Shown: in pieces, positions 6,073 to 63,691 of the stretch | Position numbering within the stretch: position 1 is the stretch's first letter | How the letters are laid out: each line of letters opens with the position of its first letter | DNA from: Mustelus asterias | Taxonomy: Eukaryota | Reading direction: 5' to 3' | Assembly (NCBI RefSeq): GCF_964213995.1 | Contig: NC_135830.1 | Coordinates: 5,208,001 to 5,272,000, forward strand | DNA length: 64,000 nucleotides | Notes under the pieces: generated by a model | Database searches by the model: none | Told to the model about the DNA's origin: nothing | What the model saw: only the letters and a program-made list of their open reading frames with translations | Program-made: the position numbers and the translations under genes

Positions 6073-6145
6073 CATTCCTGCCCGGTTCTGACCCGGGGAC
6101 CTTTTGCGTGTCAGGCAAACGTGACAACCACTTCACTACAGAAAC
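6073..6145 (-). tRNA. tRNA-Val-derived gene with anticodon GAC, probable pseudogene
   Basis: Reverse complement GTTTCTGTAGTGAAGTGGTTGTCACGTTTGCCTGACACGCAAAAGGTCCCCGGGTCAGAACCGGGCAGGAATG matches vertebrate tRNA-Val; all stems pair but the T-loop/B box is mutated (GTCAGAA vs TTCGAAA). Confidence 0.85.
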
Positions 6146-7907: not shown

Positions 7908-8414
7908 TCACTCGTGAACTTTTTGGTGTCTCAGCAGCTGGGATAAAAGACTGAATATCTTCTCACACACAGAGCAGGAGAACGGTCTCTCCCCAGTGTG
8001 AACTCGCTGGTGTCTCAGCAGCCGGGATGAAACTTTGAATCCCTTCCCACACTGAGAGCAGGTGAACGGCCTCTCCCCAGTGTGAACTCGCTGGTGTATC
8101 TGCAGGTCAGATAATTGACTGAACCCCTTCCCACACTGAGAGCAGGTGAACGGCCTCTCCCCAGTGTGAACTCGCTGGTGTCTACGCAGGGTGGATAAAT
8201 TAGTGAATCCCTTCCCACACTGAGAGCAGGTGAACAGTCTCTCCCCAGTGTGAACTCGCTGGTGTCTCTGCAGGTTGGATAACTGACTGAATCCCTTCTC
8301 ACACTGAGAGCAGGTGAATGGCTTCTCCCCAGTGTGGCTGCGCCGATGAACTTCCAGCTCTGAAGGGGCTCCGTATCCCTTCCCACAGTCCGCACATTTC
8401 CATGGTTTCTCCAT
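7908..8414 (-). CDS. Z2: C2H2 zinc-finger protein, 6 fingers, 168 aa
   Basis: ATG (MEKPWKC) at 8414, six canonical fingers, exon acceptor at 8765. Confidence 0.88.
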
Positions 8415-9468
8415 GGTGCAGGTGTCCTTGCCTCTCTCTTGGGTGGACAATCAGTTGAAGCCTCGTCCACACACAGAACACGTGTCCAGTCTCTCCCCGC
8501 TGTGAATGGTGTGATATTTATTCAGGCTATGTAACTGGTTAAAGCTCTTGAGTCTGTGAACTGGAAGACTCTCACTCGAGTGTGGCCGTGTGTTGGTGCT
8601 TTTCCAGTCACACTAATGTTTGAAATCTTTTCAAACTGACAGACCAGACAACAATTTCTCCTTCAAGATACAAAGGCCGATGATATTCAGGTCCCAAGGA
8701 ATATGACTCTGTCAGATCTAGATGTGACGTTTGAGATTTCAGCCTGTGATTCCTCTTTCAATATCCTGTAAAACAAGTTTACAGAAGTCATCAGTGTCAG
8801 TGCAGGATAGAAATTCAGAACACACAATTCTAGTTTCTATGGAACATTCTTTCCTCTCTCCAGACTCAGAACATTGGCTCTATTCTCTCTCTATCTGGTG
8901 GATAGCGTGGGAAATGATGCTGCGGTAGATCAGCCAATTCTCAATGAATGGTTGAGGCAGTTCAATGGGCTGAATGGCCAACTGCAGCTCCTATTATGAT
9001 TTCTGAGTCGTGGACAGGAAGCAGTGAGCATGGATCTGTCAATCAGCCTCAATCAGCACCTTCAGGAGAATTGGGAGGGTGAATATTAGATACAGCAGAG
9101 TGAGAATGGAGGGAGAGTGTGTGGGATGGAGATTTACAGCTTTTGGGAATGAGAGGGGAAAAAATGTTCATGAGAATCATAGAATTAATACATCTTATCA
9201 ACTGTCCCTGAGCCTTCACAATGAATCTCTCTTCTCAGGACACTCTTATCTCTGACTTGTCTGTGCTGCTCGCAGTCTCACAAAGCAGCTGCCTGTGTGT
9301 TGATACGAGGGGCCCTGCGAGGCAAGTTTAATGCTCCATGACTGTGTCTTTAATGACTGAATAACTATAGGAATATGGTCAAGTCAGCTAAATCACATGA
9401 TGCTTTATATTTCGGTTAGTAACTGCCCATTTTGTTAACATAGCACATTTGGATATATAAATATATAT

Positions 9469-9650
9469 AAAAGCAAAATATTGCGGATGCTGGAATCTGA
9501 AACAAAAACAGAAAATGCTGGAAAATGTCAGCAGGTCTGACAGCATCTGTGGAGAGAGAATAGAGCCAACGTTTAAAGTCTGGATGACCCTTCATCAGAG
9601 TTCTGACAAAGGGTCATCCAGACTCGAAATGTTAGTCTATTCTCACTCTA
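9469..9650. mobile_element. Penelope-like short repeat with inverted arm and degenerate hammerhead cores
   Basis: Inverted arms 9553-9600 and 9601-9648; CTGAnGA-GGGTC-ATCCA-GACTC-GAAAC-GTT motif; copies at about 133-210, 38160-38270, 45035-45210, 48075-48255 and 53850-54030. Confidence 0.7.
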
Positions 9651-10289
9651 TAAATATATATACGACAGCTGCCTCAGCCTTGGCCCACTCTAACACATGC
9701 ACGAAGCAGTGCTGACTATGTGGAAATGCTCAGATTAAAGTTTCCTGCCTTCTCTTTAACAGCGAGTGAAAATGTTTATCGGCTTGCAGACCTTCAAAGG
9801 AGTCAGTGTCTGCTATTTCAGCATGAACAGGCTAATCTTCACCTACGTAGGCCCCAGAACATTCTGCTTTTCGGCCTTCACCAGAGGGTGAGCAAGACCA
9901 GATTTCTCCATAACAAATACCAAAGGCGAGATATGGGGATATGCTATGCAAATAAAAGATTAGCAGAAGTCAATTTTGAACGCGAAAGGGCGAAAAGCTA
10001 GGATTTAATTGGCGAATATGTCCGTCAATGAAGGATTAGAAACATTCCTGGTTTCTGATTTGCTGTAATTGACTATTATTGCCAAGTTATTTTTCTGTAA
10101 CATCAGAACCACTTGCGGGACAGCTGCACAGGGTTTCTCCTTGTGCACAAGTTATTAAAGGGCCCACATTGGATTATGCCTGGTGTCCAGTGCTGTTTGT
10201 ACTCAAGTTGACTAAGAATGCTTAAAGTTGCTGGTACCCAGGATCTCTGACAACTCTCCCTAACCAGACCTTGATTACCCAAAGGTTGG

Positions 10290-27490: not shown

Positions 27491-27823
27491 CAGCTTGTCT
27501 GGACTTGCAGAATCTCACTGGCTGTCCTGTCTGGAGACAATATACATCTCTTTAACGTGTGCTTAATGCTCCCTCCATTCACATTGTTTGTACCTTTAAG
27601 ACTTGATGATCTGTAAAGACTGCATTCCAATCATTATTCTGTAAATTGAGTTTGTGTCTCTGTATGCCCTGTTTGTGAGCATTTCTCCACTCCACCTGAC
27701 GAAGGGGCAGCGCTCCAAAAGCTAGTGGCATTTGCGACCAAATAAACCTGTTGGACTTTAACCTGGTGTTGTTAAACTTCTTACTGTCTTTACCCCAGTC
27801 AACGCCGGCATCTCCACATCATG
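27491..27823 (+). mobile_element. Penelope-like element 3' end (pseudo-LTR) with a hammerhead-like motif
   Basis: CCAC-CTGACGA-A-GGGGC-AGC-GCTCC-AAAA-GCTA-GTGG at 27692-27728 followed by AATAAA; fragments at 30018-30102 (-) and 32272-32345 (+). Confidence 0.7.
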
Positions 27824-28800
27824 GATTCAGTTCTCCAGCTGCTGTCTGCCATCTGACAATAAAACCAATGGCTCTTATTGGGGGTGTTGGGGCCTCCAGC
27901 GGGTGTTTGTGAATCCTCCCCGCCCACCTCCCAGGGTTTCCTTCCTTCCCAGAGATCAGAGTCCTCATTGATTTGAGGCCAAAGTGTAACCTCTTATTTA
28001 TTGTCCCCCTCCCCCATCCTCTGATGTGAACCATCCTCCAGTGGCTGAGCCAGGATGGGGCCGTTAACCTGGGCCTGTTCCCGGGAGGGAGGGAGGGAGA
28101 AGCCCCGCAGCTGCAAACCAGGGAGCTGACAATGATTCTGAAGGGTTTGCGGATCCACAAAGTGTTTCCAAATCCTCCCAGCCACCGCCTAACGCTGACT
28201 CCGCTTCTCCGGGACAAACAAGCGCCAAGGACAGCAATGACACTGCGCATGCTCCATATCACAATGCCCGGGGATTGATTGACGGCAGCTCCGGACCAAT
28301 AGAAAGAGGGGGCGGGGCTGGTCCCCCAACCAATCGGAGTGAATGAGGGGCGGGACTGGAGGACCGAGCGGGAGCGGCTGGTCCTCCAGCCAATCGCACT
28401 GAATGAGGGTCCGGACCAATAGGAAGAGTTCCCTATTCTTTGCATGGGAGAGATGCACATGCGCAGTAAGCAACGGCGTTCGCAGTGCGGGTGACAGCAA
28501 TTGGAGAGAAGTTCCTGTGTCTCATCAGCAGCCGGTAAGGATGCAGAAATATAGAGGGAGCAATGGAAGCGGCGGATGGACGTAGAAGGTTTCTAAATAT
28601 CTGGTGAAGGCCTCAAACCTCGAATATGAGCCCGTAGGTCCCGTGTTTGCAGCTTCAGGTCTTTGTCCCGAGACGAAGCTCAGGTTAACGGCCGCCATCT
28701 TGATTCAGCGGGGAGCAGAGCGCACGCGTTGGTGTCTTGGTGACGCAACTGTGAGTGGGCGGGTCTTTGTGTTTCTGCTCCCACCGGGTCCTAATGCACC
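27824..28800. promoter_or_regulatory. P6: third copy of the P1/P3 promoter and leader (-), fused to a different + strand half; likely promoter of Z6
   Basis: 27824-28420 is nearly identical to 4595-5150; four CCAAT boxes; GGCCGCCATCTT; donors GTAAGG at about 28535 and GTGAGT at 28751. Confidence 0.65.
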
Positions 28801-29709: not shown

Positions 29710-31150
29710 TTAGAAGGTATTTTGAGAGACAGGATCTACAGGCATTTAGAGACACAAGGACTGATTAGAGACAGTCATGTGAGTGGCATTTAGAGACAGC
29801 ATGGCTTTGGAGTGGAAAATCATATCTCACAAATTTGATTGAGTTTTTTGAAGGAGTAACCAAGAAGGTAGATGAGGGCAGTGCAGTTGATGTTCTCTAC
29901 ATGACCTTTAGCAAGGCCTTTGACAAGATACCACATGGTAAGTTGTTGCATAAGGTTAAATCTCTCGGGATCCAGGGTGAGGTGGCCAAATAGGTACAAA
30001 ATTGGCCTGATGACAGAAAAAGTCTCACAACACCAGGTTAAAGTCCAACAGGTTTATTTGGTAGCACAAGCCACAAGCTTTCAGAACACTGCCCCTTCAT
30101 GAAAGAAGACAGAGGATGGTTGTAGAGGATTGTTTTTCAAACTGGAGGCCTGTGACCAGCAGTGTGCCTCAGGGATTGGTGTTGCGTCCACTGTTATTTA
30201 TCATTTATATTAATGATGTGGATGAGAATTTAGGAGGCATGGTTAGCAAGTTTGCAGACGCCAGGATTGTGGCATAGTGGACAGTGAAGAAGATTATCTC
30301 TGATTGCAACGGAATCTTGATCAATTGGGCCAGTGGGCTGACGAATGCCAGATGGAGTTTAATTTAGATAAATGCGAAGTGATGCATTTTGGTAGATTGA
30401 ACCAGGGCAGGACTTACTCAGTTAATAGTAGGGCATTGGGGAGAGTACTAGAACAAAGAGATCTGGGGGAACAGATTCATAGCTCCTTGAAAGTGGAGTC
30501 ACAGGTGGACAGAGTGGTGTAGAAGGCATTCGGCATGCTTGGTTTCATTGGTCAGAACATTGAATACAGGAGTTGGTACGTCTTGTTGAAGTTGTACAAA
30601 ACATTGGTAAGGCCACACTTGGAATACTGTGTGCAGTTCTGGTCACCCTATTATAGAAAGGATGGTATTAAACGAGAAAGAGTGCAGAAAAGATTTACTA
30701 GGATGCTACCGGGACTTGATGGTTATAAGGCGAGACTGGATAGACTGGGACTTTTTTTTCTGGAGCGCAGGAGGCTGAGGGGTGATCTTATAGCGGTCTA
30801 TAAAATAATGAGGGACATAGATCAGCTAGATAGTCAATATCTTTTACCAAAGGTAGGGGAGTCTAAAACTAGAGGTCATAGGTTTAAGGGGAGAGATAAA
30901 AAGAGTCGAGAGGGGCAATATTTTCATACAGAGGGTGGTGAGTGTCTTGAGCAAACTGCCAGAGGCAGTAGTAGAGGTGGGTACAATTTTGTCTTTTGAA
31001 AAGCGTTTAGACAGTTACACGGGTATGATGGGTATAGAGGGATATGGGCCAAATGCGGGCAATTGGGACTAGCTTCGGGGTTAAAAAAAGGGGCGGCATG
31101 GACAAGTTGGGCTGAAGGGCCTGTTTCCATGCTGTAAACCTCTATAACTC
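29710..31150 (+). mobile_element. CR1 LINE ORF2 C-terminal half plus tail
   Basis: [19 protein letters not shown]...RRLRGDLI; same subfamily as 10900-13025. Confidence 0.92.
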
Positions 31151-32091: not shown

Positions 32092-32440
32092 CATAGAATT
32101 CCACAGTTCGGAAGGAGGCTATTTGGCCCATCAAGTCAACTCTCCGACAGAGCATCCCACCAAGGCCCCAACAACATAACCCAGCTTATTTACCCCACTA
32201 ATCTCCCCAACCTACACGTCCTGGGGGAAAAATGGATAATTTAGCATGGCCAATCCACCTAACCTTTGGACTGAAAGCTAGTGGCGTTTGCTACCAAATA
32301 AACCTGTTGGACTTTAACCTGGTGTTGTTAGACTCCTTACTGTGTAAACTCCACACAGACAGGTAACCAAGGCCGGAATCGAACCCAGGTCCCTGGCGCT
32401 GTGAGGCAGGAGGACTAACCACTGTGCCACCGTGCCAGCC
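32092..32440 (-). mobile_element. HE1-type V-SINE with its interior replaced by a Penelope-like fragment
   Basis: SINE head at about 32345-32440, tail at about 32092-32271, inserted fragment at 32272-32345. Confidence 0.75.
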
Positions 32441-38040: not shown

Positions 38041-38268
38041 CCGTCTGTACTATCATTACATTAGATCCAATACTGTATTCACTAACACACTGCAGCTTGA
38101 CTCTTATTATTGGAACAAACACTGTGTTTGTCACACTCAGAGTCAGTCAATCCAAAGTAAATCAAGCCAATCCATGACAAAGGGTCATCCAGACTTGAAG
38201 AGTTGTCTGGAATCCCTCTCCACAGTTGCTGTCAGACCTGCTGAGGTTTTGCAGCATTTTCTGATTTG

Positions 38269-44665: not shown

Positions 44666-45639
44666 CAATCAGATTATTGCAGGACCGGCTGGTGTTCAGT
44701 GGCTGAGAAACCTGGAATCTGTGAAAAAGGGGTCTGACGAATCAACAAACGGGGGGAGGTTAAGACGTTAAGAAGCGTTTTCAGGTGTGTTTAAATTATT
44801 TTATCATAAATGTGTGATAAGAACTGTGAGGGACTTGTGACCTGATAGTCGGTGAAGTGATGGTACACTCCAAGTAGCACTGGACTGAAAAGCAGATCTC
44901 AGAGAGTAGATTCCAATGATTATAATCTTACCCAAGCATGGCCAGTGACAAATCAGAGCTCAAGTGGGGACCGGACAGGTCTCTTACCTGCCATTTGGAA
45001 ACTAAGAACAAGAAACTTATCGATTAAAATGATTAGAGAATAGAGCCAATCTTTCGAGTCTGGATGACACTTCATAAGAGCTCTTATAAAGGGTCATCCA
45101 GACTCGAAACATTGGCTCTATTCTCTCTCCGCAGATACTGTCAGACCTGCTGAGATTTTCCAGCATTTTCTGTTATTTTTAAGATTCCAGTATCTGCAGT
45201 ATTTTATGATAAAATGATTAGTTCTGATTGGAATCCCCACGACCCTCCCGCAAAACAGAGGGAGTGGTGGCAGAAGGAGAAAAAGGATAAGGATGATAAA
45301 GTCAGGGTTCTGATTCCCGAGCCCATGTCGAATAAACAAAATAGGTGGATCAGTTTATAAAGAACAGAAGTTACCATCCCTGACAAAAACTGATCAAATT
45401 AAAGTAAATAGGTTGAGGAATATAACAAAAAAAATTAATAGATGAAGTTTAAAATCATTTGTTTTGTTTTAAACTTGTGTAAAGTGATGTAATTGTGTGC
45501 CAAGTTTTTGCTGCTCACTTCCCACCCCTTTAGGTTCTGTAGAAAAGTTAACCCTTTCAGCAGACAGTTCATTTGTTTTTAAATCGGAATCATAGAATCT
45601 GAATAATATAATCATAATAATATAATATATCATATAATC

Positions 45640-46946: not shown

Positions 46947-48706
46947 CTGGAAGTTAAGAGATATTTAGTCAGCATTTCTGTTTGAAAGCCCCCCAAATGC
47001 TCATCCAATTTCCTTTGTAATTGTTTATTGTCTCCACTTCCTCCACCCTCGTAGGCAGCGAGTTCCAGGTCATTACCATTCGCTGCATCAAAATATTCTT
47101 CCTCACATCCCCCCCTGCATCTCTGAACCAAAATCTGCACCCCCCTCATCCTTGTCCCATCAGCTAATGGGAACAGCTTTTCTTTGTCCACCTTATCTAA
47201 ACCTGTCAGAAACTTGTCCACCTCTATCAAATCTCCCCTCAACCTCCTTTGCTCCAAGGGGAACAACCCCAGCCTGACATTGACAATAAAGAACAAACTA
47301 ACAGAATATGTTAATACCTGAAACCAAATGAGAATGTTTAATTTCTGTTTTAAAGATATTGTGAATATATTGTCTTGGACAATAAAGAAATTTGAATAAC
47401 TCACCTTGGGTGTGGTTGAATGGAATATATCAATCTGGTATCCACCTACAGTCCAGTGAATGTCTGGAATGTGTAGCGAGAAATCCCTCCCTAACAGCAC
47501 TGTGGGTGTACTTACACCTCAGGCATTGTAGCAGTTCAAGAAGGCAGTGTTGGGGTTGACCATGTCCGAGGCAGCTACATACAGCCACATATTCTGTTAG
47601 AATTGAAGGACAGCAGATTGAATGTGAGGCATTGTGGGACTGGACTATCTTGACCACATTCCTGTGACTGCTCAGTTTCTGCAATCACGGACCATTAAAG
47701 CTGCTTAGCAGGGCCCCGCCAGAGGACCTGGTGAGAATATTTACTCAGAATGAGTTAGAATTAAACTTATTCCAGGATCGGCTGGTGTTCAGCGGCTGAG
47801 ATTCCCGAATCTGTAAAAAGTGGGTCTGACCAATCAACACACGGTGATAGGTAGTTGGTGAAGAAGCATTCTCAGGCATTATTTAAATTATTTTATCATA
47901 AATTTGTGACCCGATAATCGGTGAAGTGACGGTATACTCCAAGTAGCACTGGATTGAAAAGTGGACCTCTGAGCATAGCTTCTAATAGTTATAATCCTAC
48001 CCGAGCATGGCCAGTGAAAAACCAGAGCTTACCTGCCATTTGGAAACTAAGAACAAGAAACATATCGATACAATGAGAAGAGAATAGAGCCAACATTGAG
48101 TCTGGATTACACTTCAGAAGATCTCTTATGAAGGGTCATCCAGTCTTGAAACATTGGCTCTATTCTCTCTCCACAGATGCTGTCAGACCTGTTGAGACTT
48201 TCCATCATTTTCTGTTTTTATTCAGATTCCAGTATCCGCAGTATTTTACTTTTATGATAAAATGATTCAGTCTGATTGGAATCCCCACGACCCTCTCGCA
48301 AAACAGAGGGAGTGGTGGCAGAAGGAGAAAAAGGATAAGGATGATAAAGTCTGGGTTCTGATTCTCCGAGCCCATGCAGAATTAACAAAATGAGTGAATC
48401 AGTTTATAAAGAACAGAAGTTACCCATCCCTAACAAAAACTGATCAAATTAAAATAATTAGGTTGAGGAATATAATTAAAAAAAGATGAAGTTTAAAAAA
48501 GTTTGTTGTTACTGAACTGTATTGTTGTCATTTTGTTGTGACCACACTGTATTCACCTCAATGCTTGTGGAATCTGTGTAGCGAGCAGGAATTGTTTAAA
48601 CTAAGAATTTCTTCTTTCATTTTGATCAGCGAGAGGACATTATATTCTGTGAAATCTGCCTCAAGAATAAGGCTGATTGTTCAGTCTGAGTGTGAAAGAA
48701 AGATAC

Positions 48707-52980: not shown

Positions 52981-55748
52981 ATAATAAAGGATAACATTCC
53001 ATTTGTCAGAACTTTGATTTGTTTGAACTAAGATTTATGAGGGTTCTCTTGTTTACAATAACCTCCCTAATCGTAAATCACACCAGGTTCCAGTGACTTA
53101 ACCATGTGGCAAGAAAGAATACTTTAAATGGTGAATTCAGAAAGTTTATTAATCATTAAAAATGTAACAAGTCAGAAAGATAAAAAACAGAGTGTTGATT
53201 AACAGTTAATAGAGAAAGTTTAACTTTAACAATTGAACAGACTTCTCTCCATCCCTCTCAGACCAGGACATGAAGTGACTGCTCCAAAAACATGGATAAC
53301 TTGTAAAACCAACAGCTCTCCACACCTCTCTGTAAACATCTCTCCCTCCACCTCTCTCTACCAAATTGCCTTCTCAAGACCACTTTTTTATACTTAAAAC
53401 ATGTAAAAAGCCCATCTTAGCCAATTCCCATAAATCTTCAATTATGAACTAAAATAGACACGAGTTTTCAAGTGATTTAAAAACAAATGAACTGTCTGCT
53501 GAAAGGGTTAACTTTTCTACAGAACCTAAAGGGATGGGGAGTGAGCAGCAAAAACTTGGCACACAATTACATCACTTTACACAAGATTAAAACAAAACAA
53601 ATGGTTTTAAACTTCATCTATTAATTTTTTTGTTATATTCCTCAACCTATTTAATTTGATCAGTTTTTGTTAGGGATGGGTAACTTCTGTTCTTTATAAA
53701 CTGATTCACTCATTTTGTTCATTCGACATGGGCTCGGAGAATCAGAACCCAGACTTTATCATCCTGATCCTTTTTCTCCCTTTGCCACCACTCCCTCTGT
53801 TTTGCGGGAGGGTTGTGGGGATTCCAATCAGACCGAATCATTTTATCAAAAAAGTAAAATACTGCGGATGCTGGAATCTGAAACAAAAACAGAAAATGCT
53901 GGAAAATCTCAGCAGGTCTGACAGTATCTGTGAAGAGAGAATAGAGCCAATGTTTCGAGTCTGGATGACCCTTTATAAGAGCTCATATGAAGTGTCATCC
54001 AGACTCGAAAGATTGGCTCTATTCTCTCATAATTTTAATCGATAAGTTTCTTGTTCTTAGTTTCCAAATGGCAGGTAAGAGACCTGTCCGGTCCCCACTC
54101 TGATTTTTTCACTGGCCATGCTTGGGTAGGATTATAACCATTAGAATCTACTCTCAGAGGTCTGCTTTTCAGTCCAGTGCTACTTGGAGTATACCGTCAC
54201 TTCACCAACTATCAGGTCACAAGTCCCTCACAGTTCTTATCACAAATTTATGATAAAATAATTTAAACATGCCTGAGAACACTTCTTAACTTCTTAGTCA
54301 GCGACCTACCCCCGTTTGTTGATTAGTCAGACCCCTTTTTTACAGATTCCAGGTTCCTCAGCCGCTGAACACCAGCCGGTCCTGCAATAATCTCATAGAA
54401 TCTCTCCAGTGCAGAAGGAGGCCATTCGGCCCATCAAGTCTGCACCAACCACAATCCCACCGACACTGTCCCCATAACCCCATTCATTTACGCTAGCTAG
54501 TCCCCCTGACACAAAGGGGCAATTTAGCATGGCCAATCCACCTAACCCACACATCTTTGTACTGTGCGAGGAAACCGGAGCACCCGGAGGAAACCTACAC
54601 AGACACTGGAGAATGTGCAAACTCTACACAGACAGTGATCCAAGCTGGGAATCAAACCCGGGTCCCTGGCGCTTTGAGGCAGCAGTGCTAACCACTGTAC
54701 CACCGTGCCGCCCCAGTTTAATTCGAGCTCATTCTGAGTAAATATTCTCACCAGGTCCTCTGTCAGGGCCCTGCTGAGCAGCTTTAATGGTCCGTGATTG
54801 CAGAAACTGAGCAGTCACAGGAATGTGGTCAAGATAGTCCAGTCCTATAATGCCTCACATTCAATCTGCAGTCCTTCAATTATAACAGAATATGTGGCTG
54901 TATGTAGCTGCCTCGGCCACGATCAGCGCCAACACTGCCTTCCTGAACTGCTACAATGCCTGAGGTGTAGGTACACCCACAGTGCTGTTAGGGAGGGATT
55001 TCCAGCTACACATTCCAGACTTTCACTAACTGTTGGTGGGTTCCAGATTGATATATTCCATTCAACACACCCAAGGTGAGTTTTTCCAATTCCTTTATTG
55101 TCCAGGACAATATATTTACAATATCTTTAAAACAGAAATTAAACATTCCCATTTGATTTCAGACAGGAACATATTCTGTTAGTTTGTTCTTTATTGTCGC
55201 TGTCAGGCTGGGGTTGTTCCCCTTGGAGCAAAGGAGGTTGAGGGGAGATTTGATAGAGGTGGACAAGATTCTGACAGGTTTAGATAAGATGGACAAAGAA
55301 AAGCTGTTCCCATTCGCTGATGGGACAAGGATGAGGAGGTCACAGATTTAAGGTTTTGGGTCAGAGATGCAGGGGGGATGTGAGGAAGAATATTTTGATG
55401 CAGCGAATGGTAATGACCTGGAACTCGCTGCCTACGAGGGTGGAGGAAGTGGAGACAATAAACAATTACAAAGGAAATGGGATGGGCGTTTGAGGGGGTT
55501 TCAAACAAATATAGTGACTCTTAACTTCCTCACACCCTGTCACTCTGTGATCCGTGTGAAATTTAAAACCGGGTATTCGCAACAAGACTCAAAGAGCATC
55601 AGCTCACTGGAGGCAGTTGTGAGACCGGCCAGTCCAGCAGAAAGAAACCCCCCGACCCTCCCCATTGACCAACTGTGAGAATGAACAAAATGCAGTCCTG
55701 GATGTAATTGAGAGCAGAAACAATAACAGCAGAATCCAACCCCTGGAA

Positions 55749-61519: not shown

Positions 61520-62310
61520 CCCAGACAGTGAACATTATCCCCCCCAGACCCAAATATAAAACAGTGAACATTATCCCCCAGACCTGAATATAAAACAGTG
61601 AACATTATCCCCCAGACCCAAATATAAAACAGTGAACATTATGCCCCCCAGACCCGAATATAAAACAGTGAACATTATCCCCCAGACCCGAATATAAAAC
61701 AGTGAACATTATCTCCCAGACCCGAATATAAAACAGTGAACATTATCCCCCAGACCCGAATATAAAACAGTGAACATTATCCCCCAGACCCGAATATAAA
61801 ACAATGAACATTATCCCCCCCAGACCCGAATATAAAACAGTGAACATTATCCCCCAGACCCGAATATAAAACAGTGAACATTATCTCCCAGACCCGAATA
61901 TAAAACAGCGAACATTATCCCCCAGACCCGAATATAAAACAGTGAACATTATCCCCCCCAGACCCGAATATAAAAGTGAACATTATCCCCCCCAGACCCG
62001 AATATAAAACAGTGAACATTAACCCCCCCAGACCCGAATATAAAGCAGTGAACATTATCTCCCAGACCCGAATATAAAACAGTGAACATTCTCCCCCCAG
62101 ACCTGAATATAAAACAGTGAACATTATCTCCCAAACCGAATATAAAACAGTGAACATTATCCCCCAGACCCAAATATAAAACAATGAACATTACCCCCCC
62201 CCCCAAGACCCGAATATAAAACAGTGAACATTATCCCCCAGATCCGAATATAAAGCAGTGAACATTATCCCCCAGAACCAAATAAAGAACAGTGAACATT
62301 ATCCACCCCC
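61520..62310. repeat. 34-37-bp minisatellite (AGACCCGAATATAAAACAGTGAACATTATCCCCC), about 22 copies
   Basis: Direct tandem repeats with a variable C-run. Confidence 0.95.
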
Positions 62311-63691
62311 CCACTTGAATACAAAATTGTCCTGATGGATTCAGACAGCATTATCACAATATTCCAAATGTGTTTTTTCCAGGAATAGATTCAGCGGCTG
62401 TATCACTGGAGGCCAGAGATACTCTCCTCAAACTCGGCTCATGTGAGGAATCCCTCCAATGAGGCTCAGGAATGCTACAACCAGAGTCACGTGACCACCA
62501 AGTGTGTAACTGAACAAACTACCGCAACGTTGAAGATGTGTTTCAGTGTGAAATGATTTGCTTCACCTGTTGCTTCAGATTTGAGAGAGGGTAATTTGAC
62601 CTTGACCCAGGCACTTTTCAGATCTGAAAGTGATGGCCTTTAGCACAATCACAAGGCTGCACAATACAGAGGGAACACTAATCTGTTTCGTTCTGCGACT
62701 ATGTCGTGGTTACACGAGTGATACTTTCCACTAATTAGCTGCCAGCACCAAAAAGGCATTCAGCCTCCCACACAAATGAGCAAGGCTGGGTATGAATATC
62801 TTTGCCAGTGCAGTGCCGGGTACCAGGCTGTACATCCCAGTGAGTGGCTGATAAATCAAGGAACATGCTGTTTGATTCTGTCAGAATAGGTAGTGATTTT
62901 TTCAGCAGGAAACACTCACCAAACCAAAAATACAATGTTTACTGTGAATACAGATTGGGCAGCACTTGCTGAACAATCCTGAGTGTGTCAATAGCTACAC
63001 TCATAATCAACTGAAGATAATCAGTCGAGTTCATAATACGGCTCAGTTGTAGTTGTGAGAAGCAACTTACATTTATACTCAGCGATCCTTTCCCTGCAAA
63101 CAAAAGGAGAATTTTCAAGTCTTGCACCTTTTTTGAATTTCCCAGAAGCTTGAGAAACCTACAGTCTTCTATTGATTTCTCCATGGTGATGCTTCAAGTC
63201 AATGAGAGTCCACCAATTGTGATCATTTGAAATTTGGCATTCTTCTGTTTGTCCTGATGAGTGCATGATGAAGAGATTCAGCAACAGGTCTCTCTTTTCA
63301 GCAATATTCAAGTTCAGTTCTAACAAGTATCTGTGCATTGTTTTATGTTCCTTGATAATTAAATGTGATCGGGGAAGTGTCACTGTGAATAATGTGCAAG
63401 TCAGTAAGAATTGTCAGCATTTTCTAATTGGAAATCTTAAGCAGTGGAACCTTTCAGACACTGAATTGTACAGTTTGCACCAAACATCAATTTAAGATTG
63501 CAGGAAAAGTTCATAAACTTATGAGAAACAAGTTCCTGTTGAGAGTTCCTGAATTTAAAAAAAATCACAGATGGTGCTTTTAAAAAGGGACACAGCAGCC
63601 CTGAAAATCAGTGACATCTCAGAATATTAAACTTCAGCCAGTTGTAGGGATCGTTAATGTCAGCAGAAACAAACCAAATATTGTCAGACTA

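What the first reader, a model, noticed from the sequence alone, without database searches (positions are those of the whole stretch)
9553..9648. Palindromic repeat carrying back-to-back hammerhead ribozyme cores on both strands
Seen: the arms fold around a central GAG|CTC. The consensus of copies (9553, 38160, 45036, 48080, 53935) is GAGCT-CTGAYGA-A-GGGTC-ATCCA-GACTC-GAAAC-GTT-GGCTC, that is stem I, CUGAnGA, stem II, GAAA, a palindromic loopless stem III (ACGU), a GUU cleavage triplet and stem I'. Every individual copy has at least one core mutation; both arms at 45036 share CTTAT, suggesting copying between arms. Established: Penelope-like elements carry minimal hammerheads with a palindromic stem III that are proposed to work as dimers, and they often have an inverted terminal copy. 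Inference: an abundant non-autonomous ribozyme-bearing retroelement that has been carried along in the ZNF duplication unit.
Basis: partly seen in the sequence, partly recalled or inferred. Interest (0 to 1): 0.7.

Follow-up and report, generated by a model that had tools for sequence, protein, structure and literature searches.

The report
Head-to-head Penelope retrotransposon stubs, shark-like genome
This palindrome is two back-to-back stubs of the ribozyme-bearing end of an abundant Penelope-type jumping gene, a layout already known; both ribozyme motifs here are mutated and likely dead, and the stub ends suggest the element likely copies the front of its RNA from both sides of one DNA cut.

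Summary
The palindrome is real (fold z about -11) and the minimal hammerhead is real at family level: 1,781 exact core matches genome-wide against 0 control, with compensatory core and stem changes between subfamilies. It is not a separate non-autonomous element. The arms are 5'-truncated pseudo-LTR ends of a Penelope-like retrotransposon with RT, a CxxxxCxxC linker and GIY-YIG (Neptune/Nematis type). The insert spans 9467-9648 between 14-bp target duplications. The five listed copies are three insertions; 38160 is single-armed. The G of 'GAGCT' comes from the inversion. Both cores at 9553 are broken, and the palindrome folds into a long hairpin. Among 93 junction-unbiased insertions, 53 have an inverted partner, 49 of those carry the tail on exactly one arm, and 36 start at -3..+3, 30 nt below a conserved TATA box, not at the cleavage site. 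Best model: twin priming on uncut RNA, run-off at its 5' end, joining at palindromic AGCT. The layout is published. This scan noted the same family and model before on other DNA, in this and other shark-like genomes.

The parts
9456..9469 (+). Target-site duplication, left copy (14 bp, AT-only; last 3 nt overlap the element's tail end)
   Evidence: identical 14-mer at 9649-9662
9467..9602 (-). Long arm: pseudo-LTR positions +1..+136 of a Penelope-like element (hammerhead, body, tail); 96% identical to the family consensus
   Evidence: alignment +3..+136 at 9467-9600; consensus built in script from 60 arms
9467..9501 (-). 35-nt 'tail' (+102..+136), present on this arm only
   Evidence: tail described in PMC8557442 and PMC11167929
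9563..9602 (-). Minimal type I hammerhead of the long arm; G12 mutated to U, predicted dead; would-be cut between 9568 and 9567
   Evidence: G12 intact in 2 of 30 paralogs
9599..9602 (.). Head-to-head junction: palindromic AGCT (here AGTT on +), shared by both arms; 5' strand of stem I and inferred transcription start
9599..9648 (+). Short inverted arm, +1 to about +50; hammerhead with G8>A and stem III C>T (both CpG decay), predicted dead
   Evidence: G8>A in 30 of 30 paralogs
9649..9662 (+). Target-site duplication, right copy
7911..8450 (-). C2H2 zinc-finger exon (6 fingers) of the duplicated unit that carries the 9553 insertion
8859..8891 (+). 33-nt fragment of the same pseudo-LTR (+19..+49)
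38175..38267 (+). Single arm (+6..+98), no tail, no second core; G8 and A15.1 changed
45035..45205 (+). Second head-to-head insertion: short arm 45035-45082 (-), long arm 45079-45205 (+); G5>T on both arms; about 14-bp TSD near 45022-45036 and 45208-45221
48079..48255 (+). Segmental-duplication copy of the 45036 insertion
   Evidence: shared flanks
53850..54028 (-). Segmental-duplication copy of the 45036 insertion (inverted)
   Evidence: shared flanks; block 42888-45585 matches 56177-53474 at 91%

Best explanation
The palindrome is one insertion of two head-to-head, 5'-truncated pseudo-LTR ends of an endonuclease-bearing Penelope-like retrotransposon, likely written when both nicked target strands primed reverse transcription on the element's uncut RNA and the two cDNAs were joined at the palindromic AGCT where the RNA likely starts. 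Shown: parent element, pseudo-LTR identity, TSD, one-sided tail, pile-up of 5' ends at +1, arms sharing subfamily variants, later spread by segmental duplication, CpG decay of both cores. Inferred steps: (1) a TATA box at -30 in the upstream unit's 3' UTR starts the RNA at +1, so the hammerhead is its first 40 nt; (2) the GIY-YIG nuclease nicks both strands 9-16 nt apart; (3) RT starts at about +136 on one strand and at about +100 (here about +50) on the other; (4) both cDNAs cross the uncut GUU site and run off at +1; (5) their self-complementary AGCT ends anneal and repair completes a perfect palindrome. The ribozyme is a functional part of the parent family but has no predicted role in these stubs.
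For: Parent: the sequence upstream of the arm runs through a 3' UTR into GIY-YIG and RT coding sequence. L240 is a partial tandem (3' UTR -177, pLTR, tail, ORF motifs from N-terminus through RT, CX4CxxC and GIY-YIG, then 3' UTR and pLTR). Homologs at 27-55% identity; 13 of 18 carry PF00078. Tail: exactly one tailed arm in 49 of 53 inverted pairs of subfamily A and 12 of 13 of B, and in 41 of 50 perfect palindromes, with 0 of 50 two-tailed. Where internal sequence marks the true direct arm, the inverted arm can have the tail the direct arm lacks (L116, L125, L126, L143). This matches two RT start sites and two-strand cleavage and extension shown in vitro for an anole PLE (PMC11167929). 5' ends: 36 of 93 (A) and 12 of 27 (B) at -3..+3; 9 at -50..-4; 5 at +32..+38. 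TATAAA sits at -30 in both subfamilies although the spacer has diverged; a distant third family shows a TATA-like box about 30 nt above a CCACTC start with no AG (by eye). A non-native G precedes +1 in 663 non-palindromic heads against A in 369, as a copied cap would give. Arms agree at subfamily sites: site 21 in 20 of 25 (p 0.004) and 30 of 40 (p 0.003), site 50 in 26 of 30 (p 1e-4), yet differ by 11-12% elsewhere, so there is no general later homogenisation. TSD of 9-16 bp in 33 of 93 against 0-1 in shuffled pairings.
Against: No RNA 5' end was observed, so the start site is inferred from DNA only. The short arms of both window insertions end at +47..+50, not at the +100 site; 15 of 50 perfect palindromes end at or below +60, which needs a looser second priming site or a different route. 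Both arms of one insertion would also agree under fold-back copying. +1 also lies at a pyrimidine tract plus YAG that looks like a 3' splice site in subfamilies A and B, and in Drosophila Penelope an intron ends at helix I (PMC4209133). The extra-G excess is only about two-fold and other inverted junctions can supply a G. Pfam hits of the decayed parent are below the curated cut-offs (RVT_1 E 0.0015, GIY-YIG E 0.001), and an earlier scan of four shorter pieces gave none. No intact ORF was found among 20 long copies. A small group of ends lies at +38/+39 (7 of 84), near the cut site.
Confidence: 0.68

Rival explanations
1. Same parent element, but the second arm arises by fold-back or self-priming: one cDNA (or an antisense template) primes on itself at the palindromic junction and copies itself until it stops.
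For: Self-priming was proposed for palindromes at inverted PLE junctions (PMC3846280, passages). It explains arm agreement, the shared G5>T at 45036, and the scattered short arms: 21 of 50 end below +85, as the window's own short arms do.
Against: It cannot add a tail that the direct arm lacks (L116, L125, L126, L143). Shorter arms peak at +85..+112 (29 of 50), near where untailed solo copies end. A loopless palindrome cannot form as an intramolecular hairpin without repair.
Confidence: 0.2
2. One reading: a distinct non-autonomous, ribozyme-driven mini-element whose master is itself palindromic and is released by hammerhead cleavage.
For: Short ORF-less copies dominate. 137 sites match an exact 22-nt head-to-head junction, and 518 of 4,573 intact heads (11%) have the perfect-palindrome context.
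Against: Junctions and arm lengths vary continuously, and only 5 of 93 (A) and 5 of 27 (B) have both arms starting at -3..+3 with no gap. Copies grade into the autonomous element. Arms co-vary within insertions rather than having fixed left and right versions. Ends do not map to the cut site. The palindromic RNA is predicted to bury both motifs.
Confidence: 0.05
3. The +1 pile-up marks a splice acceptor or an RT stall rather than the transcription start.
For: A pyrimidine tract plus YAG ends at +2 in A and B. An intron ends at helix I in Drosophila Penelope.
Against: Solo copies share no upstream exon and several abut their TSD directly. The third family piles up at a start with no AG. TATA spacing is fixed at 30 nt.
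Confidence: 0.07

Closest known systems
EN+ Penelope-like element insertion unit, e.g. Pen2a_Av of Adineta vaga (PMC3846280, passages) and the general scheme in PMC8557442 (passages)
   Same: Partial tandem pLTR, head-to-head inverted copy with a palindrome at the junction, 30-40-nt tail on one end, TSD, TATA and Inr-like motif in the pLTR
   Different: Here most insertions are 100-250-nt stubs with no ORF, TSDs are 9-16 bp, and junctions pile up at the first base of the hammerhead
Neptune/Nematis-clade PLEs (PMC8557442, passages)
   Same: [quoted passage not shown]
   Different: Neptune versus Nematis was not resolved by a tree; no microsatellite targeting is apparent in 44 reconstructed sites
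Minimal hammerheads (min-HHR) of metazoan PLEs (PMC4209133, parts 1-2 of 4 read)
   Same: Core, extra base after A9, G10.1-C11.1 pair, loopless palindromic stem III, 4-bp stem I, the U3-A8 core variant, and pairs of motifs on opposite strands
   Different: Published opposite-strand pairs were about 100-700 bp apart, here they overlap at stem I. Density is 14 intact motifs in 400 kb (order 10^5 per genome), against about 4,000 and 9,000 reported for coelacanth and Xenopus
PAc (Poseidon, Anolis) in vitro system (PMC11167929, parts 1-2 of 4 read)
   Same: Two RT start sites that define the tail, both strands cut and extended, uncut RNA as the main template
   Different: That work reports no twin-primed inverted products or run-off at the RNA start in the parts read; its ORF starts inside the hammerhead, here the long ORF starts after the tail
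LINE-1 twin priming (recalled; named only in search listings)
   Same: Both target strands prime, giving a 5' inversion with junction microhomology and a TSD
   Different: L1 primes at poly(A) plus an internal site and inverts different parts of the RNA; here both arms copy the same 5' leader
Non-LTR retrozymes (bioRxiv 10.64898/2026.07.22.740005, part 1 and passages)
   Same: Type I hammerhead, PLE-derived, reported in one chondrichthyan genome
   Different: Retrozymes are head-to-tail tandem units with a ribozyme in each; these copies are dispersed, inverted and truncated

Membership tests
EN+ Penelope-like element (Neptune/Nematis type) | One ORF with RT and C-terminal GIY-YIG in the parent | tested here: met
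   Motifs in order in L240 and others; Pfam hits below cut-off; 13 of 18 homologs carry PF00078; all copies seen are decayed
EN+ Penelope-like element (Neptune/Nematis type) | CX2-5CxxC linker between RT and endonuclease | tested here: met
   L229, L235, L240, L244
EN+ Penelope-like element (Neptune/Nematis type) | Pseudo-LTR formed by partial tandem | tested here: met
   L240 (subfamily A) and L244 (B)
EN+ Penelope-like element (Neptune/Nematis type) | Inverted 5' copy, one-sided 30-40-nt tail, TSD | tested here: met
   9553 copy; 53 of 93 inverted, 49 of 53 one-tailed; TSD 33 of 93 vs 0-1 control
EN+ Penelope-like element (Neptune/Nematis type) | RT phylogeny placing it in the Neptune clade | not tested
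   No named reference proteins were on hand; no tree built
EN+ Penelope-like element (Neptune/Nematis type) | A currently intact, active master copy | tested here: inconclusive
   None among 20 long copies; only the best 150 of 11,130 candidates were scored
Minimal type I hammerhead ribozyme | CUGANGA and GAAA core, NUH triplet, stems I and II, palindromic stem III in the family consensus | tested here: met
   Consensus from anchor-selected arms; 1,781 exact matches vs 0 control; 27 of 81 arms keep all 11 core bases
Minimal type I hammerhead ribozyme | Covariation | tested here: met
   A vs B, both selected on a downstream anchor: C3-G8 to U3-A8, U.G to U-A in stem I, H17 U to C, other changes in the loop; a third family has stem III AGCU and different stems
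Minimal type I hammerhead ribozyme | Intact core in this copy | tested here: not met
   G12>U on one arm, G8>A on the other; 0 descriptor hits in the window
Minimal type I hammerhead ribozyme | Self-cleavage (as dimer or protein-assisted) | not testable with these tools
   Folding gives the catalytic dimer -15.1 kcal/mol against a -24.0 cofold minimum; no assay possible
Non-LTR retrozyme | Head-to-tail tandem units, each with a hammerhead | tested here: not met
   Window copies are dispersed, inverted or single; not surveyed genome-wide
MITE (DNA transposon) | Symmetric terminal inverted repeats, fixed ends and fixed TSD length | tested here: not met
   Asymmetric arms, variable ends, TSD 9-16 bp
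miRNA precursor (mir-5681, mir-3202) | Rfam gathering score | tested here: not met
   31-38 bits against 88-90, and none at 9553

The most novel reading that the evidence does not exclude
Penelope-like elements make their long-unexplained inverted ends by twin priming: a dimeric enzyme primes both nicked strands at two internal sites on an uncut, capped RNA whose first nucleotides are the hammerhead's stem I. Run-off at the cap plus a palindromic AGCT gives perfect back-to-back ribozyme palindromes. The hammerhead then sits between cap and ORF and would act as an off-switch that decaps the mRNA rather than as a tool that prepares the template. Shark-like genomes hold on the order of 10^5 intact motifs as a record of this.
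Probability: 0.5. Interest if true: 0.55.

Novelty: new member of a known kind. Interest (0 to 1): 0.27.

Why it matters
The locus itself is a dead stub and matters little. The family matters as a natural data set: how Penelope-like elements form inverted ends and what their hammerhead is for are both open (PMC8557442, passages). Tens of thousands of short insertions give sharp, testable predictions for the in vitro system that now exists: RNA start at +1, two priming sites on opposite strands, uncut template. For annotation, such palindromes can be mistaken for miRNA hairpins or MITEs.

Tried and rejected
Rfam: no hammerhead family hit at E<=1. Pfam on four short decayed ORF pieces: 0 families. 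RNA evidence: no RNA holder listed. Contigs of four coded runs laid on L240 cannot show starts and were not used. Cleavage-site truncation: rejected as the main end (5 of 84 in A, 0 of 20 in B at +32..+38). A mirror-symmetric TG-N16/17-CA target, a lead from earlier notes, is absent in subfamilies A and B: 1 and 0 of 44 sites, controls 0-4; it may apply to another family. General post-insertion homogenisation of arms: rejected, arm-to-arm difference 0.118 against about 0.134 expected from independent decay; a local conversion at 45036 is not excluded. In-cis dimer from the back-to-back pair: rejected. A covariation count on descriptor-selected motifs was not run because it would be circular. 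Literature: 'Penelope' + 'twin priming' gave 3 papers, none about PLEs by title or abstract; 'Penelope', 'Neptune', 'shark', 'retrotransposon' gave 0; 'Penelope', 'hammerhead', 'shark' gave 4, none on shark elements. Lunse et al. (dimer cleavage) is not held, so only its title was seen. No supplements were read; those of PMC4209133 and the retrozyme preprint may list shark motifs. Rows dropped: 4 duplicate loci and 3 second arms of the 100 listed places in A (93 left), 3 of 30 loci in B (27 left). The samples come from the first 40 Mb (A) and 6 Mb (B) of contig C1 and favour younger copies; L294 and L295 may be paralogs.

Full report
Observation. The window lies in a 3.68-Gb genome (G000:C71:5208001-5272000). 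I read it as a shark by recall of its repeats; among named homologs of the element's protein, two are from a bamboo shark. 9553-9648 is a strong palindrome: -54.1 and -60.3 kcal/mol, z -10.9 and -12.1. It is the symmetric core of a larger insert. The long arm is 9467-9602 (-), the short arm 9599-9648 (+), and a 14-bp duplication flanks them at 9456-9469 and 9649-9662. The centre reads GAG|TTC here; 7 of 30 paralogs keep GAGCTC. 38160 is a single arm. 45036, 48080 and 53935 share flanks and are one insertion.

The hammerhead. Numbering sets +1 at the A of AGCT. The exact core pattern occurs 1,781 times against 0 for the reversed control. A structure descriptor found 14 motifs (all families) in 400 kb of arbitrarily placed genome samples, against 0 in each of 10 shuffles, and none in the window. 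The consensus of arms picked only on a downstream anchor has the full core. 27 of 81 arms keep all 11 core bases, and losses fall mainly on CpG sites: divergence 0.29 against 0.067. A second subfamily (7,998 exact anchor matches; 6,104 for the first) swaps C3-G8 for U3-A8 and U.G for U-A in stem I, and its other changes lie in the loop or at H17. That is real covariation, and the U3-A8 variant is described in PMC4209133. At 9553 one arm has G12>U and the other G8>A. An RNA through the palindrome would hold one sense and one antisense motif and fold as one hairpin. Even for the consensus, the catalytic dimer is not the predicted minimum (-15.1 against -24.0), in line with low or protein-assisted activity in PMC4209133 and PMC11167929.

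The parent. Upstream of +1, longer copies continue into about 350 nt of 3' UTR and then GIY-YIG and RT coding sequence, with variable 5' truncation. L240 is a partial tandem with both pseudo-LTRs and all ORF motifs in order, broken by frameshifts and stops. The CX4CxxC linker marks the Neptune/Nematis type (PMC8557442 passages). Pfam hits are weak, but 13 of 18 homologs carry the RT family PF00078 and one carries GIY-YIG PF01541. No intact ORF turned up among 20 long copies.

Anatomy of insertions. I sampled 93 insertions of subfamily A and 27 of B through an anchor at about +51..+86 that does not touch the junction. 53 and 13 have an inverted partner within 600 nt. 49 of 53 and 12 of 13 pairs have the tail on exactly one arm. 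3' ends are bimodal, near +100 and +135. 5' ends pile up at -3..+3 (36 of 93; 12 of 27), with a cliff upstream (9 at -50..-4 against 39 at +4..+50 in A) and no peak at the cut site (5 and 0 at +32..+38). Only 5 of 93 and 5 of 27 have both arms starting at -3..+3 with no gap. Genome-wide, 518 of 4,573 intact heads have the perfect-palindrome context and 137 sites match an exact 22-nt junction. In 50 of those 137, 41 have one tail, none two and 9 none; the shorter arm ends at +85..+112 in 29, at +61..+84 in 6 and at or below +60 in 15. The window's copies belong to that last minority. TSDs of 9-16 bp were found in 33 of 93 against 0-1 in controls. Arms of one insertion agree at subfamily sites but have otherwise drifted apart by 11-12%.

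Mechanism. TATAAA lies exactly 30 nt above +1 in both subfamilies although the spacer differs. A distant third family shows the same arrangement, with about 16-22 of 43 truncated heads starting near its equivalent position, counted by eye. I infer that the RNA starts at +1. A G rather than an A precedes +1 in 663 against 369 non-palindromic heads, a modest excess that a copied cap would give. With both target strands cut and extended and two RT start sites shown in vitro for an anole PLE (PMC11167929), the simplest model is twin priming on uncut RNA, run-off at +1 and annealing through AGCT. The G5>T shared by both arms at 45036 fits copying from one ribozyme-dead template, though local conversion is not excluded. 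Fold-back, proposed in PMC3846280, explains the very short second arms but not tails on the inverted arm only. A splice-site reading of +1 is possible but has no shared upstream exon behind it. No RNA data bore on the start.

Comparison and novelty. Inverted pLTR, tail, TSD, junction palindrome, TATA/Inr motif and opposite-strand minimal hammerheads are all in print (PMC3846280 and PMC8557442, passages; PMC4209133, parts 1-2 of 4). The Drosophila Penelope promoter is internal and TATA-less (PMC2377424, passages), which differs from what I infer here. My searches found no paper on this shark family or on twin priming in PLEs; the library lacks most subscription papers and Repbase, and I read no supplements. 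Also seen: PMC6155905 and PMC6765202 (passages) and the retrozyme preprint (part 1 and passages). This scan has many earlier notes with the same family and model. I had written the model down before looking, and the notes are not independent support.

Verdict. Real feature, new member of a known kind, dead at this locus. Interest 0.27. The twin-priming and RNA-start reading is about even odds and would be worth about 0.55.

Noticed in passing
L040 (G000:C1:10335741-10338770), about 1000-1490: A processed, poly(A)-tailed mRNA copy lies antisense inside the element's 3' UTR, just above the hammerhead; its reading frame looks like ribosomal protein L37a (name recalled, not checked by a call).
   Followed up: no
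window 27610-27825 (+), 32270-32350 (+), about 29980-30100 (-): Pieces of a different Penelope-type family with its own minimal hammerhead (stem III AGCU, stem I CAC/GUG), a TATA-like box about 30 nt upstream and a one-sided tail.
   Followed up: partly
L048, L080, L144, L150, L294: That second family has inserted several times inside this family's pseudo-LTR near +39..+48, a possible target hot spot.
   Followed up: no
genome-wide; L235-L245, L246-L275: A whole subfamily (7,998 exact anchor matches) has the U3-A8 core variant as its consensus.
   Followed up: partly
L076-L115 (400 kb sample): 14 intact minimal hammerheads in 400 kb against 0 in shuffles, which extrapolates to the order of 10^5 per genome.
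   Followed up: partly
subfamily A sample, positions +38/+39: 7 of 84 5' ends fall at +38/+39, the 3' edge of stem I and 2-3 nt from the cut site; some are due to later insertions, the rest may be RT stalls or cleaved templates.
   Followed up: no
L240 about 2630-2665; L242, L244: After the tail, a branch-point-like motif, a pyrimidine tract and CAG precede the likely start codon, suggesting a 5' UTR intron as in other PLEs.
   Followed up: no
window 6073-6145 (-): tRNA-like sequence, Rfam 50.4 bits; possibly a SINE head or a tRNA pseudogene.
   Followed up: no
window 61525-62326: Tandem repeat array of about 800 bp, copies about 90% alike.
   Followed up: no
window 3040-56375; G000 C71 and many smaller contigs: Nine C2H2 zinc-finger exons in the window; the unit around 9553 recurs at 97-100% in at least 40 places, several on small contigs, a recent gene-cluster expansion or partly redundant assembly.
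   Followed up: partly
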